Part shown: in pieces, positions 4,049-60,795 of the stretch
Position numbering within the stretch: the first letter of the stretch is position 1
Layout of the letters: each line of letters opens with the position of its first letter
Assembly: GCA_024137785.1 (NCBI GenBank)
Contig: JAHRHZ010000267.1
Span: 16,053,325-16,117,324, forward strand
DNA length: 64,000 bases
Direction of reading: 5' to 3'
Source of the DNA: Ginglymostoma cirratum
Taxonomy: Eukaryota
Made by a program: the position numbers and the translations under genes
The notes under the pieces: model-generated
Told to the model about the DNA's origin: nothing
What the model saw: the letters and a program-made list of their open reading frames with translations, nothing else
Databases searched by the model: none

Positions 4049-4266
4049 CATAACACATTGTGGAGCTGGAGGAGCACAGCAGGCCAGGCAGCATCAGAGG
4101 AGCATGAAAGCTGACATTTTGGGTTGGGACCCTTCTTCAGAAAAATAAGAAGGGTCCTGACCTGAAACGTCAGCATTCCTGCTCCTCTGATGCTGCCTGG
4201 CCTGCTGTGTTCCTTCAGCTCCACACTCTGTTATCTCTGACTCCAGCATCGGCAGTTCTTACTATC
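4049..4266. mobile_element. PLE fold-back (inverted pLTR hairpin) with 14-bp TSD
   Basis: Arms 4049-4140 and 4148-4266 are reverse complements; TSD tcacaataattagt at 4035-4048 and 4267-4280. Confidence 0.93.
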
Positions 4267-4289
4267 TCACAATAATTAGTTTTGTTTTG

Positions 4290-5244
4290 ACGTGTTTATA
4301 ATATTGAGTAGGTTCTAGTTAAAGATTCTAGTTAAAGATAATCATTGAGATAGATCTTGAAGTAGTTATAGATCCACGTATATACAAAAATCACTAAAAT
4401 ATTCAAAGAAAAGATTTAAATAAAAATATAAGAAAAACCCAGTCTCAGATAATAAGAACAGCCCCCTTGTCATTAAAGGGAGAAATCAATCATTGGTGCA
4501 GGGACTAGCAGACATTGGAATGTGGATTGAATGAACCCAATATGAGACTCCCAAGGATAAAGATGGGGGTGCCTAGTAAAAACAGTAAGAAATAACTTGC
4601 CTGCAAATCATTAGCTAAATAATGCTAACAGTAGGTGTAAACATAAAACTTTACATACAGCTAACTTTGTAGTAAAACTAATATTATGAATTTTTAGCAG
4701 TTAGTAAGAACTAACTTCTTTTGTATGTCCTATAGTTAGGGCTGTGGGAAATACAAAATGACTAACAGAATTCAAGCAGTCCTTCGAGATACACAAGTCT
4801 GGGACGTGTTCAAAGGAGTATAACCATTAACTTTAGAATGTGAATTAATGGGATGCATTGTAAGATCCCAAGGCCGAATTATTACAATGTCTGGTAAATA
4901 TTATAAGATCATGGGGAACCTAGGGATGTCCATCATTGATTCGGTGTTTTACGGGACTGGATGTATTCATTAAGGAGGAAGGAACAATGACAATGTTGCA
5001 TGTAATTTTTGTAACTCTAAACGTATAAAGATGTTGATCCCCACTGGGAAAATTAGAGTGTCACTGATTTCTCTTCCAACCTGAGCCAAAGATTAAGGGG
5101 GCAATTGAGCCCTCATGTCAAAGCCTGGTTCAGGGTGATCACTGTCCTCAGACTGAATGACACCGGAGTTTGCTTGAATAAACTACCAAGTGCCTGAACT
5201 CTGCTGCCTGCTGAAAGTTATTACCATCAGGGACTTGCTCCTAC
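4290..5244 (+). mobile_element. Putative solo LTR (ERV-like)
   Basis: TATA-like tataaa near 5025, aataaa near 5177, ends ...ctcctaCA; 5' boundary and TSD not resolved. Confidence 0.4.
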
Positions 5245-5279
5245 ACTTAGAATGCTGACAATGCACACCTAGGCATATG

Positions 5280-5520
5280 GGAACAGAGGCACAGGAGAAG
5301 GCCATTCAGCCATTCAAGCCTAGTCCGCCATTCAATGAGATTAAGTCTGTCCTGTGGCCTACCTACATATACCTTCCTTTGGCCGAAATCACTTAATACC
5401 TTTGCTGAACAAAAAATTATCTATCTCAGGTTTAAAGTTAACAGCTGATCTAACATCAACTGCCATTTGTGGAGGTGAGTTTCAAACACTTATTGGCCTT
5501 TGTGTATAGAAGCGTTCCAT
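5280..5520 (-). mobile_element. CR1 LINE 3' end fragment
   Basis: aggccattcagccattcaagcc...ccgccattcaat matches the CR1 3' end at 25780-25830. Confidence 0.75.
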
Positions 5521-7177
5521 ATTCATTCATGCATTTGCTCGCCTATTCACTCATACACTCAATCACAAACACATTGAAAAGTAGTTTTAAAGTCCCAAAG
5601 CTTTTCAATGTGTTAGTGAGCTCTTCTCTGAATCTGACAGCAAGTACACTGAGAAGGTAGAGAGGCAATCCCCCAGCCCCTGATTAGCACCACGAGAAAA
5701 TAGGTTGATGGGACTTTGTAATGCCTTTTTAAAGCCGTCTACTCGGATTGGAAGATGTGGTCAGAAATATGAACTCTGTCGGGATGCAGAAAGGCAACAG
5801 CAGAGTGCCTATCGAATAATGATTATCACTCCTCAGGAGATCCAGGTCTATGTCTGAGCTCATTGGCCAACAATTGTCCCACTAAAACAAATGGCAGTAT
5901 TAAAATTGTTCCATTTTCAATATTTTTCATTTGCTTCTTTCTGGGTTTACCTGTCACATATGTTGTGCATATCTTCAGCAATTTTAATGAGATTCCACAA
6001 TTTTACAATTCCAGCAAATTATTAAAACATATTCAGTTAAGCACACTACTATTCTAGAAGTTCTGATTCAATTCCAGATTAAATAAATAGCTACTGACCT
6101 TATTAATTTTGAAGGTCAAGTTGCTGATATCTCTTCTACATTTCCAGGGATGTAGCTTCGTGGTCTATGCCAGTTATAAGTGGATTGATACTCCACACTT
6201 AGCAAGCATCCATGTACTTTCTTATTTTGTACAGTTAGTTTCAGATTCTTGTCTGCTGTGTTTTTCTTACATTTTAACCCCCATTTTCATCTCACAGTTG
6301 GATTGCTTCCTTCTGCATTATTTGTACAGGCTGAGCGGCTTTTCACATTGTACAGTAATATCTATGCAAGATCATATGTATTAACTGCTCAACTCTATAC
6401 TTGTTTTCCTTTAAAGCAAGAGATTCATACAATAGGAATTCATTGAAACTGTGCTTATAACAAATTAAATGGATTGGAATTGACATAAAAAGTAATTGGT
6501 ACCACAAAGAAACAAAAAAAAATCTATTAAAAGAAATTAGAGAACAGTCACTGTTGGAAACATACCACAACCGACACTGGACTACAATCAATTCAAAGCA
6601 ATGCATCTGATACTTAACTGAATCAAAACAAAAGTTTTTTTTTGTTCATCTGTGGGATACAGGCATTGCTGCCTAGGGCATCATTTATTGCCCATCAGTA
6701 ATTGCCCTTGGTAGTGGTCAGCTGCCTTCTTGAATCGCTGCATTCCATCTGGTCTAGGTATATCCACAATGCTATTAGGGAGGGTGTTTCAGGATTTTGA
6801 CCTAGCAACAACAAAGGAACGGTGATAACTTTCAAGTTAGGATGTTGAGTGGCTTGCAGGGGAACTTGCATCTGGTGACTTTCCCAGATATCCACCACCT
6901 TTGTTCTTCTAGACGATTGTGTTTTTAGTTTTAGAATGTGTTACCTCAGGAACCTTTGTTGCAGAGCATTTTATTCTGTTTGGCACTCAAGTAGTCCTGT
7001 TTCTTAGCTGCACCAGGTTGACACCTGATTTTTAGCTGTGCCTACTGCTGCTCCTGGCATGCAGTCTTCATCAAACCAGCTTGGTATTAGTGGGAAAATG
7101 GGGGATACGCTGGACCATGAGTTTGCAGTTTGTGTTTGAGTATAAATCGGCTGCTTGCCCAAGGAGCCTCATGATGT

Positions 7178-7644
7178 AACAAGGTGTGGGGCTGGATGAA
7201 CACAGCAGGCCAAGCAGCATCATAGGAGCAGGAAAACTTGACGTTTCGGGCCTAGACCCTTCATCAGAAATGGGGGAGGGGAAGAGGGTTCTGAAATAAA
7301 TAGGGAGAGAGGGGGAGGCGGATAGAGGATGGATAGAGGAGAGGATAGGTGGAGAGGAGGCAGACAAGTCGAAGAGGCGGGGATGGAGCCAGTAAAGGTG
7401 AGTGTAGGTAGGGGGGTAGGGAGGAGATAGGTCAGTCCAGGGAGGACGGACAGGTCAAGGGAGCGGGATGAGGTTAGTAGATAGGAGATGGGGGTGGGGC
7501 TTGAGGTGGGAGGAGGGGACAGGTGAGAGGAAAAACAGGTTAGGGAGCTTCCTGCTCCTATGATGCTGCTTGGCCTGCTGTGTTCATCCAGCCCTATGCC
7601 TTGTTATCTCGGATTCTCCAGCATCTGCAGTACCTTCTATCTCT
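7178..7644 (-). mobile_element. Young-subfamily PLE: 3' body on minus strand plus inverted 5' arm, 14-bp TSD
   Basis: TSD gagcctcatgatgt at 7164-7177 and 7645-7658; body 7178-7547 is nearly the reverse complement of the 37477-37780 copy; inverted arm 7548-7644. Confidence 0.93.
7236..7271 (-). ncRNA. Minimal type I hammerhead ribozyme motif in PLE pLTR
   Basis: Minus strand attt-CTGATGA-a-gggt-ctag-gccc-GAAA-cGTC-aagt: intact core boxes, 4-bp helix II, 4-bp helix I. Confidence 0.8.
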
Positions 7645-9171
7645 GAGCCTCATGATGTCCAGTGTTTGTGACTAGACTTGTTTGAAATCTTTCCCGTTTA
7701 GCATAGTAGTAGTGCCATGTAGCATAATAGAGGGTATCTACATTAGGACTTTGAAGATGGGACTTTGGCTGCTCAAGCACTGAATGGTGGTCAATCCTAC
7801 CAATACTGTCTTGAATTGATGTATCTGAATTAGGCAGATTGGCGAGGACGTGGTCAAGTATGTTTTTGCCTCTTGTTGGTTGTCTGGTTACCTGCTACAG
7901 ACCCAGTCTAGCAGCTCTGTCCTTTAGGATTTTAACGGCTTGGTCAGTAATAGCATAGCAGAACTATACTTGGTGGTGAATGTTAAAATCTACCACCAGA
8001 ATACATTCTGTGCTTTTTCCATCTTCTGTGCTCTTTCAAGCGGTGTTCAACATGCAGGCGTAATGATTCATCCGCCCAGGGCAAGGGAAAGTGTGTGAGG
8101 GGAGTGGTGGGTACGCTGGGTTGTAACCAGCGCGAGGTCTCCTTACTAATTTTGGCCTGGATGCCATGAGGCTTCATGGGGTCCAGAGTCAATGTTGAGG
8201 ACTTCCAGATAACTTTCTGTCAAGTGTAGATCACTGTATAGCCACCTCTGCTTTTGCTGTCCTGATGGTGGGACAGGACTTATCTAGGTTTGACAATGGC
8301 ATTGTTTGGTATATGGACTGTAAGGCATTATTCCATAAGTGTGACAATGCCAAGCTGTTGCTTGACTAGTCTGTGAGGCAGCTTTCCCAATTTGGCATTG
8401 GCTCCAGACGTTGGTCATGAGAATGTTTTGGGTTTGCTGTTGTCATTTCTGGTATCTAGGACAATGCTAGTCGGTCCATCTAGTTTCACTCCTTTTTTGA
8501 GATATTTTTAGTGGTTGATACAACTGAGTGGTTTGCTAATGGAACATTGCGCTGTCAAACTTCCTCTTGGAAAATATATCGTCGTGCTCAAAATATTAAT
8601 TCAACAAAATGCAACCTGTAACTACCTTAATATGTATTTATTATTTTAAATAGCTTTTCTCAGAAAAACGTGTTAGAATTATATAGCATCGCTAACGTTA
8701 TTGATTAGTCTGCAAGAATGTGAGTCACTAAGGTCACCATAGGCTAATTAATTCCTAACATATAGCTGCCATAAAACTCTGCTGATTACACAACATTTAA
8801 CCAATACAGCCAGCCAGTAATGTATATAAGGCATAATGTATAATGTAAAAGGTAAGTGCTGAAACATAGCATTTGACTGCTCTGAAATAATGTCCATGAC
8901 TCTAGATATCCGATCTCAGCTGTGATTTCCATTTTGTACTGCATATTCCCCACTACCACACTCTGAGATCTTTCTGCTGCTTGTCTATTGACTCATTCTT
9001 TTGCCTCTTCATTTCATGCATTGTCATTGTATTTCTTCTGTGTTCAGGGACACCCAATTAAAGAACCCACTGTACCTCTATAATTTTGTGACTTATTTAA
9101 TTTTATGCCATTATGCCTAATTCGCACCTACCAATTAAGCATAAATATAATGTACATAATTACATGACAAT

Positions 9172-20345: not shown

Positions 20346-21880
20346 AAATATAATTTAGAGCATCCACTGGAACCAGTCAGATCTGTCGTGGAAAATTGAA
20401 GTGCACTTTCTTCCCTGTGGCACTGAATGCTCTTCCAGGCCTGGAAATTAGATCAACATTCAAATGCTGTCTCAAAGGTATGTCTTTGCACCGTGTTTAT
20501 ACATTAAGAACAGGAAGCGTGATATTTGCATGTTTGTTTGTAATTTGGATAAGAGTAAATGAGAGAGAGGAATAAAAAGATCTGTCCTTAAATGAGAGAG
20601 AGAAGAAAAAATCTGTCCTTTATGACTCTTCTTCAAAACTTTTATTCAAATGTTCTACCATTTCCTGGTTCTCTTCTCATTCCAGCTATTCTATTTCATT
20701 TGTTACACAAGCAGCAAATTAATATTGAGATGTTATAAACTGAAAGAGCATAAAAAAGCTCTAATTTATGGTCCATCCCAGATAGCAGTCAGTAATTGTA
20801 AAGTTAAATTGCAATACAATGATTTTATGTGTGAAGTTCTTTGTTATCTTGAGTTTACACCCTGTTAAAACATGGGTGTGCATGATCAGCAACAAAAGAG
20901 CTGCAGGATTTATATGGATCTGTCTCCAGAAAGATCACCTTATTGAGGTATCAAGTTAGCTTAACATGACCAGTATCAGTGTTGTCTTTTTTAAACTGTA
21001 TTATTTTCACTGCAGTTTGGTCAAGTGTGCGCTGCCCTTCAATCTACCAATCAAATGGAAAATTAGTTCTGTAGTTTCGTCATTAAAAATTCCATTGGCC
21101 ACAGTTATTGAAGAAAACAAACAGAAGAAATAGAAACAAGATTCTGTGAAATTGGCACTGACATTCACTCCTTCTACAACTATTGACAGAACAAGGCCCA
21201 ACAATCAATGGTGAGCTCAGTTTAGCAATGCTTTGACTCCTCAGTCCTGCATATGCATGAGTGAGAGACATCTTCACAGAAATCTATAATAATATGAAAT
21301 AATATACTTTGTTCGTAAAATATCTTTCATTAAATACCTTTACGTGCAAACCTAGCCACTACAACAGTTTGGTTCTGTACAGTAACATATGAAGAAAAAA
21401 ACATTGGAGTTTGACTCTATCCAAACAACAAACCAGAGGCGTTTCCTACATGTGCAAGACTGTATTGACACATATTTGAGGCATTTGGAGGGTCCGATGA
21501 GTGAAGGGACCCCCATTTAGCTTCGGCAGAAAGACCTTAGACAGTGGTCTTTCCTTGCTGCGACTTGGCAGCAGCTGCCCCATGCTTTAGTGTGTCCCTC
21601 AGCATGTTGTCCGAGACCTTGGAATATGCCAATCTGCAACATTCAGTCAGGGTCAGCTCCTTGTTCTGGAAGACCAACAAGTTTCAGGCCGACCAAAGAA
21701 CGTGTCTTACCGAATTGATGGTCCTCCAGACACAGTCAATGTTTGTCTTGGCATGTGTCCCAGGGAACAGGCCTAGGAGCACAGAGTCCTGCTTCATGGA
21801 GCTAATTGGGCCAAATATCAACAAAAACCACTGCAACTTTCTCCTGACTTCCTTTGCAAAGGCACATACCAGAAGGAGGT

Positions 21881-22395
21881 AAAGGGTACTGCAGATGCTG
21901 GAGAATCCGAGATAACAAGGCGTGGGGCTGGNNNNNNNNNNNNNNNNNNNNNNNNNNNNNNNNNNNNNNNNNNNNNNNNNNNNNNNNNNNNNNNNNNNNN
22001 NNNNNNNNNNNNNNNNNNNNNNNNNNNNNNNNNNNNNNNNNNNNNNNNNNNNNNNNNNNNNNNNNNNNNNNNNNNNNNNNNNNNNNNNNNNNNNNNNNNN
22101 NNNNNNNNNNNNNNNNNNNNNNNNNNNNNNNNNNNNNNNNNNNNNNNNNNNNNNNNNNNNNNNNNNNNNNNNNNNNNNNNNNNNNNNNNNNNNNNNNNNN
22201 NNNNNNNNNNNNNNNNNNNNNNNNNNNNNNNNNNNNNNNNNNNNNNNNNNNNNNNNNNNNNNNNNNNNNNNNNNNNNNNNNNNNNNNNNNNNNNNNNNNN
22301 NNNNNNNNNNNNNNNNNNNNNNNNNNNNNNNTCAAGTTTTCCTGCTCCTATGATGCTGCTTGGCCTGCTGTGTTCATCCAGCCCCACGCCTTGTT
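21881..22395. mobile_element. Young-subfamily PLE fold-back with 15-bp TSD; centre is an assembly gap
   Basis: TSD ataccagaaggaggt at 21866-21880 and 22396-22410; inverted PLE termini flank the Ns. Confidence 0.92.
21932..22331. other. Assembly gap (400 N)
   Basis: Run of n. Confidence 1.
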
Positions 22396-23763
22396 ATACC
22401 AGAAGGAGGTGTATGGTTCTCAAACCCCCCAGCAGCTGCTTCAAGGGTAGAGTGCGGTAGTGCAGGCTGACTGGGCATACATGAAGGATCTCACAGGTAA
22501 TGCCTTTCTCACCACCAGCCAAGCAATGTCTTAGTGCTTGTTGAAAAGTTCTGGTGATGAGGCATTCCGCCAAATGACTTTGACAGTTGGCTTGAGGAAC
22601 AACCCAACAGAATGCACCCTTTCCTTTTCCTGGAGGGTCTTGATGATGCTATGTGCTGACTATTTCTTGATGGACTTGTGAAAGGTGTTCTTCTTTGCAA
22701 GTTTCTCCACGAAGAACAGGTGATATAACATGATTCAACAATTTGGAGTGTTCCGTGACAATGAGGTTAGACCCATCCTTCGCAACATTTGGGACAGGTA
22801 GATTCTCAGTACGTAGTGACACTTGGTGTTTGTATACCCGAGGGTCTACACAAAGCTTGATGCAGCAAAAAAAAAAAGTGGCCATCAGGATGACGGCAGC
22901 ATTCGGTGTGTCCTTCCTTCCTCTTTATTCAGTGTTTTGAACACAGTGTCCCTGCAGACCTGATCTATCTTAGACATGCAGATGAAGTCAAAGGTGGCTG
23001 GGGTGACTGAAACTGTGCAGGATCTGGAAATGAGCCAGACCTGCGCCACACACAATAGCCAAAGTTATAATATTATCGCGTAAGACATGCAGATAGTAAC
23101 AAATATAACACAAGTTCAAGATTATCAGACAGTTTTTCATAAATTTGCACTACAGCTTCTGAATGGCCTGTTTAATTGCAGAGACAGAAGATAATTAGCA
23201 GGTAAATATATTGGGTTTAATAGGAGGCTGAAGTTGATAGTTGGAGCTGAAAAAAAGAAGTGACCTGACTTTACTGGTGCCAGGACATCACGAGCTATTT
23301 TTGTGGTAGCAACTAATTAATGAGTTTCTTAAAAGGCTGCCATCCCAATTAGAAATGGTGACAAACTCGTCCCCAACCCCTAAGTTTTTGCATTTATCAG
23401 GCAATCATCAGCTCCATAGACTTTGCAGCAATATCAAAGTCCTGTGTTACAAAGCCACTGTCCTTATTATATAGTTTGTCTTATTTAATCAAGGCAGTAC
23501 TTATAATTTATGTTCCTTCTACTGACCACACTGTTGGCTGTATAAGAATGATGCAAGATCAAGGCCTGCTCCGGAATTCATTCCACTATCTCCAGCACAA
23601 AACTAATGGAAAGTTGCATTGTTTTTTTTTGAAAGACACATTAACTCTGTTGATCCCAATGGGTCAGTTGGATATTTAAGCAGCACAGGGCTACTTGATT
23701 AGTCGCAGCTTTCCAGTAGATGGTCAAAGTTTCCATCGTCATCCAACAGGAGCCAGTAGAGGA

Positions 23764-24815: not shown

Positions 24816-24871
24816 AACCAAGCTTGAAAACTTTGATTTTAATAAGCTGAAGATTTTAATCGCATTTTTCG

Positions 24872-30740: not shown

Positions 30741-31620
30741 GCTTTACTTGGGAAAAAGGAAGGCAATAACATTTATAAAGATATGCTATGGACTCGAAGC
30801 TCCTATTTTAATGAGGTAGGATTGTTTTCTCCTCCATAACAAATGGCCATTTAACAAAATTACGACCTTGAAATTTATGCATTTCACAGCTAAGCTTTTG
30901 TCAGTTATTCATAACTGAAGTTGGGAGTGAGAGGGATAATTATCATCATTCTTGCAAATCACTAATTTTAAAATTTCCCAACTACAACGGTAGCTAGTAT
31001 GAATCACTGCATGAACACCAAATTACATGGTTTTAAACATATTGTTCCCTTCAAACAATAATTACTATGTTTTGTTATATGCATGATTTATTTATGGCAA
31101 TTCCATATTTATTGATTGATAAGAGGGCTATGAATTAGCTTTTGAAGAAACCCAATGCACAAGAATTGCTTCTGCTAGCTCTGAACATCACACTGGGAGT
31201 GCAGCTCTGATGTCAAACAGGTACCACAGCTTAATAACTAGCAATCGATATCTGCTGGCAGCTTCTCACTCTGACGCAACTAAATCGATGTTCCATTGTA
31301 GTAGTTGAACTGCTGATGAGCCTGAGGATTACTGATACATCCCATAAGTACAAATTGGGTTTGAAAACTTGCTCAAAACTCCTTGGATAATTTGTCTGCA
31401 TAATAAAGTAAAAACACAATTTGGGAGTCCTGAGTTCCTCTAAATGTTAAAACAGGAAGTATTTGATAGGCAGTGTATGGTTGTGCAGTGGTTTTGTTAT
31501 CGGATTGAACATACAGAAGTGGCACTGACTGATCTTAGACACTTTGCCCCAGATGAATGTCAATACCCTTGACGTTATGATGCAAATAGAGGCCATTCAA
31601 CCCATCAAGTACTCATCAAA

Positions 31621-31725
31621 AACAGAAACAGAAATTGCTGGAAAAGCTCAGCAGGTCTGGCAGCATCTACAGAGAGAAATCAGCATCAACGTTTCGGGTT
31701 GAGTGACCCTTCCTCAGGACTTTTT
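31621..31725 (-). mobile_element. PLE terminus (second family) with imperfect 14-bp TSD
   Basis: cagaaattgctggaaaagctcagcaggtctggcagcatct...; aagtactcatcaaa (31607-31620) vs aagtccacatcaaa (31726-31739). Confidence 0.8.
31688..31717 (-). ncRNA. Minimal hammerhead ribozyme motif
   Basis: Minus strand CTGAGGA-a-gggt-cactca-accc-GAAA-cgtt; palindromic aacgtt helix III. Confidence 0.65.
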
Positions 31726-31823
31726 AAGTCCACATCAAATGCTGGACTACTGTTACATAAGTGTTGTGAACTTGCTCAGAAACAGACATTAAGCAGATTG
31801 TTATAACCAGAGCCTTTTATTTT

Positions 31824-34290: not shown

Positions 34291-35353
34291 AGAGCATTTC
34301 TTTACCTTTATGTTCCACAATATATACCAACAATAAAGTGACTCAGCATAGCTACACTTTAAGGTAAAATATAAATGATATAGCCTGTACAATCTGTGTC
34401 TTAATAAGTTACACATTTCTTTGTTCCTTTTGAAGAAGACTACATTGGTGTGGTTTCCACATTCAATGTTTGCCAATCTCTTACGAAGGCTTTGTACATT
34501 CAGGTAGGCTTGCTTTTGCCATCATTCTTGGCCTCAGAATGTCTCACTTCACAACCTGTGGAATACTATTGAAGGGCATTTGTGGTTGTTTTTTTGGGAA
34601 ATACTCTGAGACTCTACTCTGAACCTGCATGAATAGTATACAAGGGGTCGCATCTGCTATACAAGACTAGCAGAATCCTCAAATATTGAAATGAATGACA
34701 AACTAATCTGTTAGGATCCTCTGCCATATTTGTTGATGATTCCCTCGTTTACATTTGTGTAACCTTAATCATCACCCAAGAACCTTCCAATCTGCTTTAT
34801 CAGGTTATGATAACTAAAGCCACCGAGTCTAACTGTCCTCCAATAAATATCAATCAGAATATATTGACTTCTAAATTAACTGACAGGTATATTAATCTCT
34901 TCTTAGTGATCAGAAAACTTGTCCTTATGTTTTATACCTCCTTAAATATGTTTTTTTCCAATAATGCACAACCAGCAATTTTCATTGTAGCATTGAAATG
35001 GCTAAGAATGTGTCACTGAACAATTATCCTGCAATATTGAACAACATACTCTGATCATTAAAATGGTAAAGGTAAAGTTCAAAATAAAAGGATGTCTACT
35101 GTAATGATTGGCATGCGGAGCAAACATTATAGATTTAATCTAATTGACATAATCCCACTCCCATTTTAGTGCCCATATCAAAAGAACTGGGTTAAGTATT
35201 GACTGGACAAGCGGAGCAATTCCCTCATGGATAAAGTACAATCTTAGCAACCATTTTGTATGTTTGTAACACTTTTCATTCTAAGGTATTTAATCCCTAT
35301 AGTTCCCTAAGTCAGATAAAATATTAGTAGCAGACCTGTGAAAGACAAGTGCA

Positions 35354-35548
35354 GAGATAATAGGAACTGCAGATGCTGGGGAATCTAAGATAACAAGGAG
35401 TAGAGCTGGATGAACACAACAGGCCAAGCAGCATTAGAGGAGCAGAAAGGGTTTCTGAAGAAGGGTCTAGGCCCAAAACGTCAGCCTTCCTGCTCCTCTG
35501 ATGCTGCCTGGCCTGCTGTGTTCATCTAGCTCTACACCTTGTTATCTC
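35354..35548. mobile_element. PLE fold-back hairpin with 13-bp TSD
   Basis: TSD aaagacaa(g/a)tgca at 35341-35353 and 35549-35561; inverted arms. Confidence 0.92.
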
Positions 35549-36504
35549 AAAGACAAATGCATTATGGATTTGAGATCAGTAGACAAAACTGTTCCTGCCA
35601 TCTGTAGCACTGGTCATTACACCAGTAAAATTGGCCTTGGAGTCAGCACTCCATGTTGGATAATGGCACTGGTCACAGTGCTGGTCATACTGGCCAAGGT
35701 ATCTTTGGGAATGTAGCATACTGAAGGAAAAGCATGATGTTGCTTGTTGTATGCAGTAGATGAACTTTCTGTGGTGCTGTATGCAAATATTGCTATGAAG
35801 GATTCTCTGTGGATACCCAAGTGTAATAAGCTAGATATGAAAGTCTGTACAGGTGTGTGTTTGTGCTGCTGGGGGTGTATATGGCAACATCAATTACTTT
35901 AAAAGCACTCATCATAAATGCCTTTGAACCTTGAGGAGTTTATTTACTAATCTTGAATGGTTTCTTCCTTGCAACACTATCACAAATCCAACAACACTTT
36001 CCTTGATCAGAAATGGACCCAACTTCGAAATATGGTGTACAATGATACTGGTTCTGTCTCAAACCAGACTTTACCAATCCAGCTCCATGCTCAACAAGTA
36101 GAGAATGACATGTTTGACCACAGGCTGAGCATTTGCAGATGTGAAGATGGAAATGGTTGGGAATATGATGCACAGCTTGAACATGAAGCCATGGAGAACC
36201 AAATAGCATTGGGAGAAGGTGCCAGGTGGCACACCTGGAAAAAAAAATGCATTGTTGCTCAGGTAAGAGTCTACACAGGAATCTTTCTGGACATCCAGGC
36301 AATGCCTGTTGAATAAGTAATGGCTACCCGCATCAAAATGGAGTTTAGAACTATATGCTACATTGCATATTTGCCTAATTATGTGACTATAAGTTAGGCA
36401 TGTTCATTTCAGCTTTCTGTCTCTCAGGCCCAATTTCTCCAAACTGTATGCATCATCAATAAACACTTGTAACTGAGAGAGAGGAACATTTGCCAAAATA
36501 TAAA

Positions 36505-37410: not shown

Positions 37411-37476
37411 TCCATTCTTGAAATTTGCTTGCGATTCCTCAAATCTTCATTCTGTAACAAAATGAAAGAAACATAT

Positions 37477-37817
37477 CTACTAACATCATCCCGCCCCCTT
37501 GACCTGCCCGTCCTCCCTGGACTGACCTATCTCCTCTCTACCCCGCTACCTACACTCACCTTTACTGGCTCCATCCCTGCCTCTTCGACTTGTCTGCCTC
37601 CTCTCCACCTATCCTCTCCTCTATCCATCCTCTATCCGCCTCCCCCTCTCTCCCTATTTATTTCAGAACCCTCTTCCCCTCCCCCATTTCTGATGAAGGG
37701 TTTAGGCCCGAAACGTCAAGTTTTCCTGCTCCTATGATGCTGCTTGGCCTGCTGTGTTCATCCAGCCCCATGCTTGTTATCTCGGATTCTCCAGCATCTG
37801 CAGTACCTTTTATCTCT
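37477..37817 (+). mobile_element. Young-subfamily PLE 3' end including tail
   Basis: Near-identical to the reverse complement of the 7178-7480 body; no clear TSD. Confidence 0.9.
37686..37721 (+). ncRNA. Minimal type I hammerhead ribozyme motif
   Basis: attt-CTGATGA-a-gggt-ttag-gccc-GAAA-cGTC-aagt; predicted cleavage after 37717. Confidence 0.8.
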
Positions 37818-37869
37818 GATACAATGAACATGCAGCTTTGATCTGTTTTCATCTTCATGTGCATCATTC

Positions 37870-46388: not shown

Positions 46389-47569
46389 AGATAGCAGCTG
46401 GACACTGTGATCATTCATTGACAGTAAACTTGCTGCTCAAGTGGTAAGCAATCCTTATTTGTTCGCAAAAGCAAATGCAGTTTTTACGTGTTATCTTTCC
46501 TTTTCCTTGTTGTTCAATAAAGATTAACGTTTTCAACTGTTTGAAGACTTTCCAGTATGCGAAATACCCACACTAAACAATGAGATGATGCTACGCTACA
46601 CTGTGCATGAGAGAAAGAGTAGCTCATAAAAATACAGGGCTAGAAACTTTGTGTGCATCAAATATGTAGACCCTTTAGATGGGAGTAGTTCAGTGTCATG
46701 CATAGTGTGCAGTCTAAATATGAGATTGGTGATCCCTGTAATCTTACTGTTTTATCTGATCACAGGATTTGTAAATTCTTCATTTTCCTCCACCATTCAA
46801 TTTATGGTAAGGTACAGTGCTATGGAGGGTAGTGTCTGTAACTTCATTCTTGCAGGTGCTGTTAAAGTGACGGTCAATCAGACAGGTAAAGATGTAAAGT
46901 AGCGATACGTTTATAAATGTGAGTTTCTACTTCCAATGAAGTGATACATATGTCAACTTTGTGCCTTCAGAAGCGCTACTTTTTTGTTTCCCGTCTACTA
47001 CATGTGCTGCGAAGGTTCTATTTGTGGCTTAGAACAATTGATCTTGTGCTTACATGGGTTTTAAGTATGAGACTGATAGTAGAAATCGCTCATGGTCCCA
47101 GCAATTGAAAATACTCCTGTTCGTGGAGATAAGCTCTCCATGAAACTCACTAAAATTGACGGTCAGCTGATATTTGTTAAAGTACATCCCATTGCTTTTG
47201 CTGGTAAAGGAACTATAAAACCTTCATTTTTGAACAATGGACCAATGTCATGATTCTGACTCATTATCCTTACAAATGCCTTAATATGTTGATTGCTGAG
47301 TGGAGGCTTACTTCAAATTTTTAAATGAGTACGATTTCATTTGTATGAAAAGAGCTGCTAGCTAACATTTGATTTCGCAAGATTAATAATGTATTCCCAT
47401 ATTTTTGCATGATATTCTGTGCAACAAACCTGCTGCCATTCAGTAATCGATTACAATTCCAACAATTATGTTGATAAACATATTTCCAGATGTTGAACTG
47501 GCAGGAATTGAAATGTTATCGAAATGATTCTGTCTATGTCTGGGAAACACGGATTAAAAGAGCAGCCAG

Positions 47570-48492
47570 AGACAGTAAGAACTGCCGATGCTGGAGTCAG
47601 AGATAACACAGTGTGGAGCTGGAGGCATCATTGTGAGAAATGTACAATCCAACCCCACAATCAAAGATGTATGTCCCTCCCCACTCCTATCTGCTTTTCG
47701 TAGGGACCACTGTTTCTGCGACTCACTTGTCTGCTCCACCCTCCCCATTAGCCCCACCACTCCTGGCACCTTTCCCTGCAACTGCAGGAAGTGCCACACC
47801 TGCCCCTACACTCCCGCCTCACCTCCATCCAAGGCACCAAACAAACCTTTCACATCAGACAGAGGTTCACCTGCACATCAGTCAATGTGGCCTATTGCAT
47901 CCATTGCATTCGATGTGGCCTCCTCTACATCGGTGAGACCAAGCAGAGACTTGGAGCCCGCTCTGTAGAACACTTGTGATCTGTTCATGACAAACGACAA
48001 CACCTTCCAGTCGCAACCATTTCAACTGTCCCTCCCACTCCCTGGGTGACATATCCATCCTGGGCCTCCTCCAGTGTCACAATGACGCCACCCGGAAACT
48101 GGAGGAGCAGCTTCTCATATCCCGCCTTGGGAGCCTGCAGCCCAATGACCTAAATGTGGACTTTACCAGTTTCAAAATCTCCCCACACCCGGCTTCATCC
48201 CATGACCAAAGTTCCCTCTCATCCTCGCCTCCTTGACATGACACAACCTGTCCATCTTCTCTCCCACCTAGTCGTTCCTCCCACCTCACTAACCAATTCC
48301 CACTACTGCCTACCTGCACTCATCTATCACCTTCCCACCTACCTTCCCCAGCCTGACCCTTCCCCTCTCTCATTATTTCTGAGGTCTCTTCCCCCTGCCC
48401 CATTTCTGAAGAAGGGTCCCGTCCCAAAACGTCAACTTTCCTGCTCCTCCGATGCTGCCTGACCTGCTGTGTTCCTCCAGCTCCTCACTGTG
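47570..48492 (+). mobile_element. PLE with GIY-YIG endonuclease remnant, inverted 5' arm and 16-bp TSD
   Basis: FTCTSVNVAYCIHCIRCGLLYIGETKQRLGARSVEHL; TSD ttaaaagagcagccag at 47554-47569 and 48493-48508. Confidence 0.95.
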
Positions 48493-49753
48493 TTAAAAGA
48501 GCAGCCAGTCTCTCAAAGCTACAGGGCAAAATGACGACATGCAGTTGGCTTCTTGATTTTCATGAAGTGCTGAAAATACAGATTACAAAGCTTCTAAGGC
48601 ATTACTGGGAGGAACCTTCACTGAATTACAGCGATAAGTACAAAAGACAATCAATGTCCCAAATATAAGAGTTGTGGCATGAGAGAAATAGTGAGGGAAA
48701 GCGAAGACTTGGCAATTTCAGTCAAATCCTATGATCAGATACAGCAGTAAAACAGATTACAGGGATCATCAGTCTTATCTTCGGGCTGCATGACACTAAG
48801 CTTCTCTGAACTACTGCATCCACATATTTGACACACACCAAGTTTCTCACCTTGTTTTGGAGTAGAAGTAATATAGGCAGAGCCAGCACTCACTGTTCTT
48901 ACACTGGCCAACCAGTTCCAGTTGAACATGTGCAGTTGAACACAGAAATCTGGAAGAGGCTGTTCAACTTGTACCATTTCTTTAGGAGTTTTACTATGTT
49001 GGTATCATGACAAACAATTGGGTTTTTAATCAGGTGACATGGAATTATGTTGCTCCAGGAGTAAATACGAAACTCAATAAGAGAAGTTGGAGCCTTACCA
49101 TTCCAGAATACATAACATGTCAATGGCACAATCTCTTAATTATTGTTAAGCAGTCTCTGAAATTAACTTTAGCAAGTGTGGAGTCATTTTCCTTTAGCTG
49201 AATTGAAAATGAGAGAGACAGAATAGGAGCATTTTTTCGTTTTTAATCTTTTATCCATTTCTCTACTCCCATCATTTTTTTCCCATTCCTTTTTTTAATT
49301 TGGTATGGAATTAAATACTTTGATTACCATTACTTGGTTGGACTCTGGGACACTATTCTACCTTATTCAAAACTCATTAATTTAAAGAGTTAAAATTAGG
49401 CTCTTCTTAATGTCCCAGTAAGGGTTTTTCCACTTGATTTGTGAGCAAGTTATTGGTTACCAAGTTCACACATTTATCAGGTCGCCTGCAACCAAAATGG
49501 CTTTTTAATTATTACAAGTTCTGGTGCAAATGTGTAAATGAAAGACTGGCACATTTCTTGCTGCTGATGACTAAACCTGGGCCATAATTGTCATTTGTGC
49601 AATATTCATTAAAAAAAAATTTTTAATTGACTGTTTGTGAAAAAGTCAATTGACTACAGAATAACTATTTTTGACTAAATAAAGAAGAAATAAAGAACTT
49701 GTGTTTACATCACTGAATATCAAGGCATCTCAACTTGTTTTATAGTCAATTAA

Positions 49754-49950
49754 AGGTAACAAGGTGTGGAGCTGGATGAACACAGCAGGTCAGGCAGCAT
49801 CAGAGGAGCAGGAAAGCTGACGTTTTAGGTCTGGACCATTTAGCTTTCCTGCTCCTCTGATGCTGCTTGACCTGCTGTGTTCATCCAGCTCTACACTTTG
49901 CTATTTCAGATTCTCCAGCATCGGCAGTTCCTACTAGTTCCCACTATCTC
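49754..49950. mobile_element. PLE fold-back hairpin with 14-bp TSD
   Basis: TSD ttatagtcaattaa at 49740-49753 and 49951-49964; inverted arms. Confidence 0.92.
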
Positions 49951-50029
49951 TTATAGTCAATTAAGTACTGTTTGAAGAATAGTTGCTTATGTAAAGTAAG
50001 GAAAACAGTTTGACATATTGAGTATTGAG

Positions 50030-51179: not shown

Positions 51180-51535
51180 TCCATTTACTTCTGTTCTGTC
51201 TGCTATTCCAGTCATAATCTTGTTTTTCTAATTTTTACTTTCAGACGCAGCTTTTCATTATTTTGCCACTTGCACCCACCCTGAAGCATTTCTTTATAAA
51301 TATTACCAATCCCTTTGCCTTTTGTATAATGAAACATTTTACCATGCAATCTCTCTTGCCTTTTAGTATATCAGCCAGAACTTTTCTGCCGTTTTACCCT
51401 TTCTCTTTTCATTCACTCAATCATATTACCTCTCTATCTTCTTTCAGTTCTGGAGGAAGTTCCCTGATCTGAAACATTTTCTCTGTTTCTCTATCTGCCA
51501 AACTTGCTGAGTATTTCCAACAATTTCTGACTAAT
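51180..51535 (+). mobile_element. Old PLE 3' UTR and terminus
   Basis: Pyrimidine-rich UTR, then cagttctggaggaag...ctgaaacatt...cttgctgagtatttccaacaatttctg. Confidence 0.55.
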
Positions 51536-53409
51536 CTATGGTTTGATATACTGAATAGAACAATTTCACAATTAATGGTATTCTTTAGGGGAAAAAAATC
51601 ACAATTTCTTCCTTTAAAATCTGGAGTAGCCTTTATTAAATCCTGAACCTCTAAATTCTTCCTATATATCCCAGCAAGATCAAACACTACTGTTTAGAGA
51701 TTCACAGAAAATATACTGGTTAATAAGCTCACAAATTAGCCATTTAAACCAAAATTTTGCTCCCCATTGATTAGAGGAAAGGAGATTTTATTTCTGCTGA
51801 GTCATCTTCCCAACAGAAATGTTTAAACCTTGTTCTGAGCATGTTAAATTTGAAGAAATAGCCTGTGAAAATGCTGACCGTATTTAGCTTAGGATATGAT
51901 TCACCTTCTGTTTAATTTCTCTCTGCAGAAATGTTCACATCCATGTTGATCTTCCATCTGGGGGGAACGCTCGAGTAAGTTGAAAACTCATTGCTCAACA
52001 GATTGGCTATGTCAGTTTTTCCTCCATAATGGAATATTTCAGCTAGCAGCTTGACTGAAGGTTGATCATGCACTGTTAACCATGTCAGAATGGCTGTCAG
52101 ATGCCCTTATTTGATGCCCTTATTGGACGCTTCATTTTTCCAATGCTTAAAAATCAATTGTGGATATGTTGTTGCAACAAGCAAGTCACCACATGGAAAA
52201 TAAAAGTAAGGTAATGACAACATGGCAAATTAACCGTTCCCTCCATTATCACTGTGAAAAAAATGTTTTGACTAATACGAAAACAAAATATTTTATGCTT
52301 TGCTATGTTTGCAATGAAAACTTATTGGATCCATTAGAACTGCATCCATCCATAAGATATTGTATAGTTTACGAAACAGAAACTAGCATAGTCATGAGAA
52401 AAATATATGGTTTTACCTTGAAGTATTGACACCTATCAATTACTTTTATTTGCACTTCAATACATCACCTTCATAACAGTGTTATAACGGAATAATTGCT
52501 TCTGTATTAGATCATATATTACATTACCTAAAATAGCTGTTGTAATAAATAGTAAGATGATTATTGCCATTCACCATAAATGTTAAAACTGCATCAAGAC
52601 TTGAAAACACTCATAGGAGTTCAGGCAGGTGTCTTTCCTGCAGTGGGGCGCAGCAGCAGCACTGACAGATTGCAGCACTATCAGCTGATATGTCCGATTA
52701 CCCTTTCTTATGGATCCAAAAAGCCAACACAGCATGAGAGCTGAATTAATGCTCGGATAGGCCAGAGAGCTGGAATTTGATAACTGAGCCTGTCAAGAAC
52801 ACACAGAAGGTCAGAGTATATCTGGACACAAACTATTGCAAACAATTTATTGGCTGATTCAGCATCCATCAACAGAGTGCTGTCATTTATCATGGTTGCA
52901 CAGACCTGACAAGTATAAAATTGATTAATATGTTCTTACATTTTCAGAATTTTGCTCCATAAATCATTTTTAGAGTCAATATGTACCTTTTTATGAATGT
53001 CTAGCCAATTAGAAAATCCCTATCTATACAGAAGAGCAATTTTGAGTCTGAAGCTGACTGGCTTCAATTCCAACACAAACCACAATGACATAAAACCTTT
53101 TGCTTTGCTCAACAAAGACATGACTATCTTTCTTTAAGATTGTAAGAGAAAGAAAGGCTCTTTTAAATTTAGATGACACATCTGCCCACAAAAAACGGGA
53201 ATCAAGTGAGCTCTCCATATAAGACACCGTCATCTGATAACTGAAATATAGAATTCCACAGCACACTTAACTCTGGAGAAATATCTGTTCTGATCTAAAT
53301 TTTCACCTACTCTGAAAGTCTCTTGCTAATTCTTGCTGGTCTGCACTTAAACTATTTGGAGATAGGGAGCAGGAAATCTACACACTATGTCCGGTACACT
53401 CAAACTCTA

Positions 53410-53660
53410 AACAAAAACAGAAATTGCTGGAAGAACTCAATAGGTCTGACAGCCTCTATGGAGAGAAAGCAAAGTCACCATTTTGGTCCAGTGACTTTTC
53501 TTCGGAAAAAAAAAATGCTCAGGTCTGAAGAAGGGTCACTGGGCCTGAAGCATTAACTCTGCTTTCTCCGCACAGATGCGGCCAGACTTGCTGCATTTTC
53601 CCAGCAATTTCTGTTCTTTTTGTTTCTGATTTCCAGCATCTGCATTTTTGTTTGTTTAGT
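53410..53660. mobile_element. PLE fold-back (second family) with 16-bp TSD
   Basis: TSD gtac(a/g)ctcaaactcta at 53394-53409 and 53661-53676; inverted arms with decayed hammerhead motifs. Confidence 0.9.
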
Positions 53661-54639
53661 GTACGCTCAAACTCTATCTGTGTGAATTTCTCAAAAGGTT
53701 TGTTTGAAGAGTCTTCAGCATGGTGCAGCGTTGTTCAAAATAACAAATGTTAAAAGATATGACCTACTGGTTTTAAAAATTCAATCACTAACCTGAGTAT
53801 AAAAAACAGTCCATACTATTGCATTGGTTATGAAAAACATTGCTTCTTTTGTTTACTCACTGATGACACTCTGTAAACTTTTCAAACGCGTCAAAAAACA
53901 TTTCAATCATACAATAAATTGACACTGTAATAAATGATATTTGCACACATAAAATACTTCAGGAGGAATTAAAAATCGTGAGGCAATTTAAGAGTGTGAA
54001 CATTATATCAAGATTTGCACAATTTTGTTAAAGAATAAATAATCACTTGTTGTCCTTTTCAGATTTCTGTCATTACAGGCCATAAAATTAAAGTCTCTTC
54101 TTTCTACTGGGACTGACATCCTTTGAAATTTACAGATGTCGATAGTTGTTGCCACACACTCATCGATTGTTGTCCCTGCAGCTTTACTATTAACATTCAT
54201 CCGATAAATTAATCCATAGTTTCCACAGAAGTCCCTCTATTACTCACTATCAGATCAAACTGCTTTAGTCTTGGCTTGTCTTTTGGACAGCTATTCATAG
54301 AATAGTTATTTCTTAGGCCATTGCGTCCCTGTTGTTCACTATGTCCAACCTAACAAACTACCGCAGTATTCAATGATTGACTGTCAACTCTATTAGTGGA
54401 TTGGCTTGACAGTTACTAGCGTTTATTCTTCATAGTTCCACTGAAGTATGTCAATATGAAGTAACTATTCCACTAAGATGAAACATTTTGAAGCACAGGT
54501 TAAGTTGGATCTGACAACTGCATCATCATAAAAGATCCTTATCTTGTTTCCAGGGGTATGTTTCTCTGAGGCAATACTCAATCGACAGGAAACACGTTCA
54601 TGGCTGATTTCATCCTTTCCTGGTAGTTTCAATTGTTTA

Positions 54640-57800: not shown

Positions 57801-59159
57801 AATGCATCAGAGTATTTTCAATTGGACTTACTAAACACCTAACTATTGATAAATATATCTATTAAATATTGGTCTAACTATAAGTTAATATAAGGTCCTA
57901 TGGAATCACAACTTCCAAGGCTTAATGTTATGAAAATAATATTTAAAATAATGCATACATTTTGAGGATTAATTTCCAGATTCAGAAATATTTAAGATTC
58001 TGCTATCTCTAACAAACATGTGTCATATAATCAAACATGTCTGCCTCAGTAAGAAATGTTTCAGTGCACAGGAGATGTGTGCGCCAATGTAATTTTCAAA
58101 GCCTGGAATCGAATGTTTCAAAGCTGTTTTCCTACTGAGTGTCAATGTGTGTGGAAGGGATATGCAGTGCTCATGCTCTTTTTACTGTCATGCGAGAACT
58201 ATGAACAAAGGAAAAAGAGATGCAGCCATTATGGACATAGACCATTTAAAACAAAATCCAGAATACAACAGCTTTGCGGGCAGAAACTGAGGTTCTGGAA
58301 CCGAGCAAAAGCATTGCTGCTATTTCAGTACTGCATAACCAAGCTTGCACTATAATGGAAGGTCAGCTTGTTAACGTTTTGTTTTAGCATAATCTACATG
58401 AGGCAATAGCAATGCGCCAGGGTCACTCACAGGTTCCTGTTTCAGCAGCTTTTAAAGGACTCATGGTTGCTCTTCACAGGTTACTATGACTGCATTTAGG
58501 GAAAAATGAGAGAAAAGATGTTTATGACTGTTGAATGTAAAAGCCGTAGAGATTCCGCTAGTGGAGATCCTATAAAGAAGGATAGCTTTTTTTAAGATGA
58601 TGAGGAATACCTCGGGGATCAAAGCATTAACAGGGAATTGGATGGTAAAGAGATTTGAGATGAGCTTCATCCACAGAAGTCCCCGTACGGCCAATGTCTC
58701 AAACAGCTTTATTTAAACAGCTCAAACAGCTATATTTAATCTGACTTTAAGTGCTGATTTCTGTTAAGACTGAAAGAGAGGTGGAAAGGGAGGTACGTAG
58801 CGCCTTTAAGCCAAATATATTTGCATTTTTAAGTCACATCGGCCTTAACTTAGGAGAAGGTAGCTCTGATTTCAAAACTACCCCCTAAAGGTGAATTGGC
58901 AAGGTACACATCGGCATACATCAGTGTAGAAAATGATCAATAAAGCCAGTGGACTAAACACCCATGCCAATGATAGATGAGGTTCTTCAGCATATTCAGC
59001 AACTCATCTTGGAGAAGGGCAACCCGAAAAATCAAACCTGCATCCTTTCAGTTGCAAGTTGTTTTAGCTGCCTTGGACAAGGCAGTGAGAGATGCTCTAC
59101 ATAAACACCACCCACTTAAATGTCAGCGGAATATTGAGCAAATCATCAGCCAAAACTAA

Positions 59160-59254
59160 GACCTCTGAAGAAGGGTCTAGACCCGAAATGTCAGCTTTCC
59201 TGCTCCTCTGATGCTGCTTGGCCTGCTGTGTTCATCCAGCTCTACACCTTGTTA
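59160..59254 (+). mobile_element. PLE terminus with hammerhead motif
   Basis: CTGAAGA-a-gggt-ctag-accc-GAAAtGTC then the terminal sequence ending ccttgtta. Confidence 0.88.
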
Positions 59255-59318
59255 ACCAAAAGCGCAAATGCACTCCAGATCCAAACACTGGCATGAGTTG
59301 AATTATGTTGTTGAATGT

Positions 59319-60795
59319 AACCTCTTCCTCCGTTATATCGATGACTGTATCAGCGCCGCCTCATGCTCCCACGAGGAGCTCGAACAGTTCATCCACTTCA
59401 CTAACACTTTCCACCCCAACCTTAAGTTCACCTGGACCCTCTCTGATACCTCTCTCTCCTTCTTGGACCTCTCTGTCTCCATCTCTGGCATCCACCTGGA
59501 AACTGATATCCATTTCAAGCCTACTGACTCCCACAGCTACCTAGAATACACGTCCTCTCACCCACCTTCCTAGAAAAAGGCCATCCCCTATTACCAATTC
59601 CTTCGCCTCCGCCGCATCTGCTCCCGAGATGAGGCATTCCACTCCCGGACATCCCAGATGTCCTCGTTTTTCAAGGACCGCAACTTCCCCTCCACAGTGG
59701 TCGAAAATGCCCTGGACTGTGTCTCTTGCATTTTCCGCAACTCATCCCTCACACCCGCTACCCGCAATAACAACCAAAACACAATCCCCCTCGTCCTCAC
59801 GTACCACCCCACCAACCTCCAAATCCAACGCACCACCCTCCGATACTTCTGCCATCTGCAATCTGACCCCACTACCAAAGACATTTTTCCCTCCCCACCC
59901 TTATCTACTTTCAGGAAGGACCACTCTCTCCGTGACTCCCTTGTACACTCCACACTCCCCACCAGCCCCACCACACCCGGCACTTTTCCCTGCAACCGTA
60001 GGAAGTGCTACACCTGCCCCCACACCTACCCCCTCATCCCCATCCCAGGCCCTAAGAAGTCCTTCCACATCAAACAGATGTTCACCTGCACGTCTGCTAA
60101 TGTGGTATACTGTATCCGCTGTTCCCGTTGTGGCCTCCTCTACATCGGGGAAACCAAGTAGAAGCTTGGGGACTGCTTTGTGGAACACCTACTCTCGGTT
60201 CGTAACAAACAACTACACCTGCCAGTCACAAACTATTTAAACTCCCCCTCCCACTCCTTGGACAACATGTCCATCCTTGGCCTCCTGCATTGCCACAATG
60301 ATGCCGCCCGAAGGCTGCAGGAGCAGTATCTCATATTTCACTTGGGAACCCTGCAGCCCAATGGTATCCATGTGGACTTCACAAGCTTCAAAATCTCCCC
60401 TCCCCCAACCGCATCCCAAAATCAGTCCAGCTCGTCCCCGCCTCCCTAACCATTCCTCCTGCCTCAAGCCCCACCCCCATCTCCTGCCTACTAACCTCAT
60501 CCCGACTTCTTGACCTGTCCGTCCTCCCTGGACTGACCTATCCCCTCCCTAACTCCCCACCTACATTCACCTTTACTGCCTCCAACCCCGCCTCTTTGAC
60601 CTGTCTGTCTCCTCTCCACCTATCTTCTCCTTTATCCATCTTCTATCCGCCTCCCCCTCTCTCCCTATTTATTTCAGAATCCCCTTCTCCTCCCCCATTT
60701 CTGAAGAAGGGTCGAGGCCCAAAACATCAGCTTTCCTGCTCCTCTGATGCTGCTTGGCCTGCTGTGTTCATCCAGCTCTACACCTTGTTATCTCA
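59319..60795 (+). mobile_element. 5'-truncated PLE: RT C-terminus, linker, GIY-YIG endonuclease, 3' UTR
   Basis: LFLRYIDDCI, FHPNLKFT, SFLDL, KPTDSHSYLEYTSSHP, CNRRKCYTC, NVVYCIRCSRCGLLYIGETK; in-frame stops at about 59571 and 60159. Confidence 0.96.

What the first reader, a model, noticed from the sequence alone, without database searches (positions are those of the whole stretch)
4049..60795. Hammerhead-ribozyme-carrying PLE fold-back system dispersed across the window
Seen: about ten PLE termini carry CTGA(T/A/G)GA-A-[4-bp hairpin]-GAAA-CGTC/T or a decayed version (7236-7271 -, 37686-37721 +, 31688-31717 -, 59165-59192 +; decayed at 4111-4172, 35455, 48406, 53525, 60701). Known: PLE pLTRs encode minimal type I hammerheads with a very short or palindromic helix III that needs dimerisation. 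Inference: two distinct families here use this ribozyme to process their RNA. The tiny ORF-less ~200-bp hairpins leave potential self-cleaving, dsRNA-forming cassettes throughout what may be transcribed intronic DNA.
Basis: partly seen in the sequence, partly recalled or inferred. Interest (0 to 1): 0.7.

Follow-up and report, generated by a model that had tools for sequence, protein, structure and literature searches.

The report
Penelope stubs with decaying hammerhead ribozymes
These repeats are the scattered end-pieces of two families of a known jumping gene (Penelope-like) that carries a known small self-cutting RNA motif; most copies in this window have that motif broken, and many short copies begin exactly at its front edge, likely because the copied RNA starts there and was still uncut.

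Summary
The motifs are real: 22 Penelope-like (PLE) termini of two families lie in the window. A minimal hammerhead in PLE pLTRs, inverted copies and a one-sided 30-40 bp tail are all published. The cassette idea is not supported. Only 3 of 15 termini that span the ribozyme keep core and palindromic helix III, none of the four ~200-bp hairpins keeps an intact core, decay is mostly at CpG, and no host exon was found. In 1.0 Mb of this genome, 98 of 242 copies start within -4..+5 of the ribozyme's first base, about 30 nt below a TATA-like box, with no clear peak at the cut site. Of 51 fold-backs, 46 have the tail on exactly one arm and 39 have a target duplication (30 of them 14-16 bp). Best reading: the stubs are run-off cDNAs of the uncut mRNA front, and fold-backs are two cDNAs primed from both nicks. 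The scan has noted this pattern on other windows of this genome and in other genomes. New member of a known kind.

The parts
2..101 (+). Family A tailed terminus; its 5' part lies beyond the window start
4035..4280 (.). Family A fold-back: tailless arm 4143-4050(-), tailed arm 4147-4268(+); both hammerheads broken; 14-bp TSD 4035-4048/4267-4280
7164..7658 (.). Family A asymmetric fold-back: tailless arm 7547-7177(-), tailed arm 7549-7644(+); 14-bp TSD
7236..7271 (-). Intact minimal hammerhead (+1 at 7271); TATA-like box 31 nt upstream
21866..22410 (.). Family A fold-back with a run of N in the middle; 15-bp TSD
31615..31721 (-). Family B solo stub that starts at the hammerhead; core and helix III intact
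31823..32490 (.). Old family B composite: inverted tailless arm (31929-31825), decayed RT fragment (31925-32092 and on), tailed end (32372-32488); hammerheads broken; no TSD found
35339..35561 (.). Family A 198-bp fold-back: tailed arm 35448-35352(-), tailless arm 35452-35549(+) starting at +2; G12 lost by CpG change; 15-bp TSD with 2 mismatches
37474..37819 (+). Family A 5'-truncated solo copy with tail; no TSD found
37655..37661 (+). TATA-like box at -31; putative promoter (inferred)
37686..37721 (+). Intact minimal hammerhead; +1 (putative transcription start, initiator-like) at 37686; predicted cut after 37717
47554..48508 (.). Family A insertion: short inverted tailed arm 47625-47568(-), then EN fragment and tailless end to 48494(+); G12 lost; 16-bp TSD
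49736..49964 (.). Family A short fold-back; hammerhead truncated in both arms; TSD of 14 or more bp
51434..51530 (+). Old, decayed family B stub
53394..53676 (.). Family B fold-back; both arms start at the hammerhead edge (+3 and -2); both cores broken; 16-bp TSD
59161..59254 (+). Family A solo stub starting at +4; core boxes intact, helix III C15.2 changed to T
59322..60797 (+). Longer 5'-truncated family A copy: RT thumb, C-x4-C-x2-C linker, GIY-YIG with CCHH, pLTR; hammerhead broken at G12 and G16.2

Best explanation
These are insertions of two families of endonuclease-bearing Penelope-like retrotransposons whose terminal repeat holds a minimal hammerhead; most short copies are likely run-off cDNAs of the front of the element's still uncut mRNA, and are likely dead on arrival and decaying neutrally. 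Shown: the ORF of a near-full-length copy has RT and GIY-YIG domains; the hammerhead sits 95-135 nt inside the element's 3' end; copies end at two sites about 36 nt apart; short copies begin at the first base of helix I; a TATA-like box lies 28-32 nt above that base in long copies; fold-backs are single insertions with a target duplication and a tail on one arm only. Inferred: (1) transcription starts at helix I, so the ribozyme forms the first 32-34 nt of the mRNA. (2) The protein nicks both target strands about 14-16 bp apart and starts cDNA inside the RNA at about +98 and +133, as the Anolis PLE does in vitro. (3) Each cDNA runs toward the RNA's 5' end and the two are joined: a fold-back if both survive, a solo stub if one does. 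(4) Stubs lose the TATA box and the ORF sequence beyond the priming sites, so they would neither be transcribed on their own nor be remobilised. (5) The ribozyme is under selection only in active elements, where it likely cuts slowly or with protein help, outside the step recorded by these copies.
For: PLE identity: RVT_1 and GIY-YIG in 4 of 4 long ORFs; 106,991 first-look candidates in the genome. 5' ends in -4..+5: A 46 of 146, B 52 of 96, against 6.8 and 3.1 expected from the +6..+80 density. Only 13 of 146 A and 13 of 96 B ends fall in -297..-5. Controls: 3 of 111 simulated ends were miscalled into that window; DNA above 52 solo stubs is not pLTR-like (pyrimidine 0.48 vs 0.80; TATA-like in 1 of 52). 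TATA-like hexamer in 40 of 43 long A and 5 of 11 long B copies, at -28 to -32. Fold-backs: tail on exactly one arm in 46 of 51 (p=1e-9 against independent arms); the tailless arm reaches further 5' in 17, the tailed arm in 16, tie in 13; TSD in 39 of 51 vs 8 of 139 random sites; 51 of 51 junctions distinct. Decay: CpG positions of core and helix III changed in 12-47% of cells by subfamily, non-CpG core in 1-8%. Published in vitro data on the Anolis PLE show both-strand cleavage and extension, two internal RT starts that define the tail, insertion from unprocessed RNA, and no RNA-seq ends at the cut site (PMC11167929).
Against: No capped 5' end was observed; the start site rests on motifs whose consensus (TATA, YYANWYY) I recall. 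No excess of G before +1, which copying of a cap might leave. In family B only 5 of 11 long copies have a strict TATA hexamer. Family A shows 5 ends at the cut site vs 2.3 expected (p=0.08), so some cut templates are not excluded. In D. virilis Penelope the start lies 46 bp above an intron that ends at helix I (PMC2377424, PMC4209133), so this geometry is not universal. The Anolis study saw no difference of RT start between the two strands, whereas arms here pair strictly long with short. Solo copies have a TSD in only 21 of 85 cases. Core conservation in long A1 copies trends above neutral (7 vs 11.6, p=0.10), and core CpG transitions (17 of 189) are lower than all upstream CpG (112 of 618). 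Two of those five upstream columns look like subfamily differences; without them the rate is 39 of 370.
Confidence: 0.7

Rival explanations
1. One reading: the ribozyme processes the transposition RNA, and the dispersed hairpins act as self-cleaving, dsRNA-forming cassettes in host introns.
For: About 39 strict intact motifs per Mb, so many lie in host transcription units somewhere. Core and helix II are kept across subfamilies, with one double change G-C to A-T in family B (53 vs 7; Fisher p=4e-5, probably one event). Fold-backs are predicted to form long duplexes.
Against: 0 of 4 short hairpins in the window have an intact core, and where both arms carry the motif it is largely paired to its antisense copy. 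No significant post-insertion conservation. The predicted lowest-energy fold of the intact monomer and dimer is not the hammerhead fold. Helix I is only 2-4 bp and has a mismatch in subfamilies A2 and A3. Published monomers do not cut and dimers cut weakly (PMC4209133). No exon found in 145 of 330 window frames or 140 top-ranked of 4,223 regional frames.
Confidence: 0.08
2. The pile-up at +1 is a roadblock: RT falls off, or the cDNA is cut, at the ribozyme fold or the C-rich tract above it while copying long read-through RNA.
For: The boundary coincides with a structured motif, and a hairpin pairing the CUGAUGA box with the helix III region is predicted. The Anolis enzyme prefers ATT, which occurs at +1 in family A.
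Against: Ends lie on the far (5') side of the structure, after RT has passed through it. Family B has no ATT at +1 and shows the stronger peak. Both families keep a TATA-like box at the same distance.
Confidence: 0.12
3. Fold-backs arise by self-priming or snap-back of one strand (self-priming on an antisense template was proposed in PMC3846280), so one arm is a copy of the other.
For: Arms of a pair come from the same subfamily on inspection and are more alike within pairs than between (0.915 vs 0.882 in A). 16 of 46 mixed pairs have the tailless arm contained in the tailed arm.
Against: In 17 of 46 mixed pairs neither arm contains the other: one has the tail, the other reaches further 5'.
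Confidence: 0.12
4. The stubs or hairpins are a non-autonomous family (SINE-, MITE- or retrozyme-like) that spreads as a unit.
For: Very high copy number and a shared 5' start.
Against: 51 of 51 junctions differ. Stubs lack the TATA box. No tandem array of the motif in the window.
Confidence: 0.07

Closest known systems
[quoted passage not shown]
   Same: Core boxes, unpaired base between A9 and G10.1, G10.1-C11.1 pair, palindromic 15.2/16.2 without loop, short helix I; mostly single motifs from truncated PLEs; pairs on opposite strands 100-700 bp apart are described.
   Different: Helix II is 4-5 bp here (7-8 bp in Schistosoma). No shark is named in the parts read. The extrapolated count here (about 170,000 strict motifs) is far above the 4,000 and 9,000 given for coelacanth and Xenopus, but with a different pattern.
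EN+ PLE insertion structure: inverted 5'-truncated copy, one-sided 30-40 bp tail, TSD (Craig 2021, PMC8557442, introduction and passages; Arkhipova 2013, PMC3846280, discussion and passages)
   Same: Head-to-head inverted arms, a tail of about 36 bp on one end, partial tandems, TSD; a TATA plus initiator in a pLTR was noted for Adineta Pen2a.
   Different: Most copies here are reduced to 100-135 bp with a sharp shared 5' start at the ribozyme. TSDs are 14-16 bp against 8-10 bp in Adineta. The data fit two primed cDNAs better than self-priming.
Poseidon of Anolis carolinensis, PAc (Frangieh 2024, PMC11167929; parts 1-2 of 4 read)
   Same: Two internal RT start sites that define the tail, both-strand nicking and extension, ribozyme near the ORF start and not needed for insertion.
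   Different: This element has the Zn-finger-like RT-EN linker that marks Neptune and Nematis, not Poseidon. Strict long-with-short pairing of arms was not seen in vitro.
Non-LTR retrozymes (bioRxiv 10.64898/2026.07.22.740005; part 1 of 5 and passages read)
   Same: PLE-derived, ORF-less, carry type I hammerheads, found in the one chondrichthyan sampled.
   Different: Retrozymes are head-to-tail tandem units with a ribozyme in each unit. These are solo or head-to-head copies.

Membership tests
EN+ Penelope-like element | Single ORF with RT and C-terminal GIY-YIG EN | tested here: met
   RVT_1 and GIY-YIG hits in 4 of 4 long ORFs, some below the curated cut-off
EN+ Penelope-like element | [quoted passage not shown] | tested here: met
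   Seen in the L031 translation and in a family B copy
EN+ Penelope-like element | pLTRs, direct or inverted, with an optional 30-40 bp tail | tested here: met
   L031 partial tandem; 3' ends at about +95-101 and +127-135 in A; 46 of 51 pairs with a one-sided tail
Neptune clade | C-X2-5-C-x-x-C linker between RT and EN | tested here: met
   C-x4-C-x2-C in both families; feature per PMC8557442, shared with Nematis
Neptune clade | RT groups with Neptune in a tree | not tested
   No reference PLE proteins were fetched; Neptune versus Nematis is left open
Minimal type I hammerhead (PLE type) | Core boxes, extra base after A9, G10.1-C11.1, palindromic helix III | tested here: met
   3 of 15 window termini; 50 of 159 sampled copies that reach +5
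Minimal type I hammerhead (PLE type) | Covariation in the helices | tested here: inconclusive
   One double change in helix II of B and one in helix I between A1 and B; other changes are one-sided; helix I is mismatched in A2 and A3
Minimal type I hammerhead (PLE type) | Self-cleavage as a dimer or with protein help | not testable with these tools
   Needs a bench assay
Non-LTR retrozyme | Head-to-tail tandem units, each with a hammerhead | tested here: not met
   No such array in the window; copies are solo or head-to-head
MITE-like unit element | The same internal junction repeated at different loci | tested here: not met
   51 of 51 junctions distinct
Host-exapted intronic hammerhead | Located in a host intron and conserved after insertion | tested here: inconclusive
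   No exon found; conservation not significant; orthologous loci not available

The most novel reading that the evidence does not exclude
The genome holds a fossil record of the PLE reaction. The mRNA begins at the hammerhead's first base; one RNA is primed twice, at two fixed internal sites, by two RT subunits on opposite nicks; and the usual product is a strong-stop-like cDNA of the uncut leader. Full-length copies would then need a strand transfer, a tandem read-through RNA or a ribozyme-made circle. As a by-product the genome carries on the order of 170,000 intact minimal hammerheads.
Probability: 0.5. Interest if true: 0.55.

Novelty: new member of a known kind. Interest (0 to 1): 0.3.

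Why it matters
The ribozyme as reported is ordinary for PLEs. The value lies in the junction statistics. How PLEs make inverted ends, and what their hammerhead does, are stated as open in PMC8557442 and PMC11167929. The shared 5' start and the strict one-tail pairing give two testable predictions: a capped end at +1, and paired priming from one RNA. I found no paper stating the pile-up at the ribozyme edge in the searches. Lunse et al. 2017 (PMC5785218) could not be opened, and no supplements were read.

Tried and rejected
Rfam scan: no hammerhead family matched; hits were chance miRNA-like hairpins below gathering scores. DNA search of the own genome returned nothing because common words are skipped. 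RNA evidence: no RNA holder was listed. Two runs of uncertain kind gave contigs essentially only on repeats in 28001-48000; this is no evidence either way. On the near-full-length copy their summed depth was 24,000-31,000 at the terminal ~130 bp against about 3,300 just above, in line with the excess of stubs but a poor measure. Host gene: no Pfam hit above cut-off in 145 window frames; only retroelement domains and one marginal DUF in 140 regional frames. Cap-derived G before +1: not seen. Splice acceptor as the cause of the +1 boundary: rejected for A, which has no AG at +1. Poly(A)-type cleavage at +1: possible only for B, since A has no such hexamer on the sense strand. The first arm-identity figure was invalid (offset references) and was redone. 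The first conservation test is confounded by subfamily differences and by selecting copies that align through the core; it was redone on long copies.
Full report
Observation. Every cited position holds the motif or a decayed form. Aligning to long reference copies gave 22 termini in the window, 16 of family A and 6 of family B. Of the 15 that span the ribozyme, 4 keep the core boxes, and 3 of these (7271-, 31721-, 37686+) keep the palindromic helix III; 59161+ has lost it. The predicted cut at 37717 is correct by hammerhead numbering (recalled). A strict pattern gave 40 hits in 1,015,115 genomic bases and 0 in 5 Mb of Markov control.

What the element is. The window lies in a 4.36-Gb genome; shark-like is my inference and the wording of earlier notes. 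A protein search gave 106,991 first-look candidates. Locus L031 is a partial tandem with a long ORF carrying RT, a C-x4-C-x2-C linker and a GIY-YIG domain with CCHH. Family B is a second PLE, about 50-56% identical over thumb and EN, with the same linker. The linker marks Neptune and Nematis (PMC8557442); no tree was built.

Sample. I used 425,900 readable bases around the window and 589,215 from 20 places elsewhere in the genome; 20 of the first 40 distant stretches were unreadable. Of 307 profile hits, 266 passed the alignment score of 60. A further 24 with a 5' end next to N or a sequence end were dropped from the 5'-end counts, which leaves 146 A and 96 B.

Where copies begin. Numbering from the first base of helix I (+1), 46 of 146 A and 52 of 96 B copies start at -4..+5, against 6.8 and 3.1 expected from the density at +6..+80. 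Only 13 in each family start between -297 and -5. The method miscalled 3 of 111 simulated ends into that window, and the DNA above 52 solo stubs is unlike the pLTR. Long copies carry a TATA-like hexamer at -28 to -32 (40 of 43 A, 5 of 11 B strictly) and an initiator-like heptamer around +1 (consensus recalled). At the cut site there are 5 A ends against 2.3 expected (p=0.08) and 0 B ends against 1.0. The simplest reading is that the mRNA starts at +1 and was uncut when copied. This agrees with the Anolis PLE, where ribozyme mutants insert normally and no RNA-seq ends lie at the cut site (PMC11167929). It is an inference; no capped end was seen and no cap-derived G was found.

Fold-backs. 51 head-to-head pairs hold 102 of the 266 termini. 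39 have a target duplication (30 of 14-16 bp), against 8 of 139 random sites and 21 of 85 solo copies. In 46 of 51 the tail is on exactly one arm (p=1e-9). The tailless arm reaches further 5' in 17, the tailed arm in 16, with 13 ties. In those 17 neither arm can be a copy of the other, which argues against simple self-priming as proposed in PMC3846280. All 51 junctions differ, so the hairpins are made anew at each insertion. Arms come from the same subfamily on inspection of the 9 apparent exceptions. Seven such insertions with TSD lie in the window.

Is the ribozyme under selection? Across subfamilies the core and helix II are kept. Family B has one double change (G-C 53, A-T 7, mixed 7), other changes are one-sided, and helix I is 2-4 bp with a mismatch in A2 and A3. 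This fits selection in active elements but rests on few independent events. After insertion, core non-CpG positions in 78 long A1 copies carry 7 changes against 11.6 expected (p=0.10), and in 9 A2 copies 2 against 3.6. CpG transitions hit G12, C15.2 and G16.2 in 17 of 189 cells, against 112 of 618 at five upstream CpGs, or 39 of 370 without two columns that look polymorphic. Intact core with palindrome falls from 24 of 36 in A1 to 13 of 33 in A2, 2 of 20 in A3 and 11 of 70 in B.

The cassette idea. None of the four ~200-bp hairpins in the window keeps an intact core. They are predicted to fold into long duplexes on either strand, and the lowest-energy folds of the intact monomer and dimer are not the hammerhead fold. 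No host exon was found in 145 of 330 non-repeat window frames or in 140 top-ranked of 4,223 frames over 464 kb, so an intronic location is unshown. The RNA look-ups were uninformative.

Known and new. Hammerheads in PLE pLTRs, including opposite-strand pairs and solo motifs from truncated copies, are in PMC4209133 (parts 1-2 read). Inverted copies and the one-sided tail are in PMC8557442 and PMC3846280 (sections and passages read). PMC2377424 and PMC6765202 were seen as passages only. PMC5785218 was not held, and no supplements were read; they may list shark motifs. Searches showed no paper stating the pile-up at the ribozyme edge. I recorded this reading, before the look-ups; the scan's notes then showed the same reading on several other windows, which is not independent support.

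Verdict. A real but ordinary feature: a new member of a known kind. Interest 0.3. The start-site and twin-priming reading has probability about 0.5 in its full form and interest 0.55 if true.

Noticed in passing
window 31823-32490: An inverted family B arm, a decayed PLE RT fragment and a tailed end lie in one block; it looks like an internally deleted insertion made by a template jump. No TSD found.
   Followed up: partly
window 31721-31684 (-): This B stub differs from its family on both sides of helix I, yet can still form 3 pairs (T-A replaced by C-G); may be chance.
   Followed up: no
window 62072-62310 (-): A further PLE RT N-terminal fragment (62-73% identity to the L031 protein) with no terminus called next to it.
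   Followed up: no
window 16800-18650, 19538-20350, 25750-26910: LINE RT fragments (RVT_1 at 25847-26905); two copies lie inverted 7.9 kb apart at 78% identity. The CR1/L2-type label is recalled.
   Followed up: no
window 37690-37737 and L031: The AUG inside the CUGAUGA box of subfamily A1 opens a 14-codon frame; A2, A3 and most B copies lack this AUG. The true start of the ORF was not resolved.
   Followed up: partly
window 37653-37664: The family A TATA-like box reads as AATAAA on the opposite strand, a possible poly(A) signal for antisense RNA; family B lacks it.
   Followed up: no
L064 766-3768: Decayed LTR-retroelement pieces with SCAN, integrase zinc-binding and integrase core domains, about 30 kb beyond the window end.
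   Followed up: no
window 21932-22331 and sampled loci: Runs of 100 or 400 N often lie inside fold-backs, so the sample probably undercounts long or young fold-backs.
   Followed up: partly
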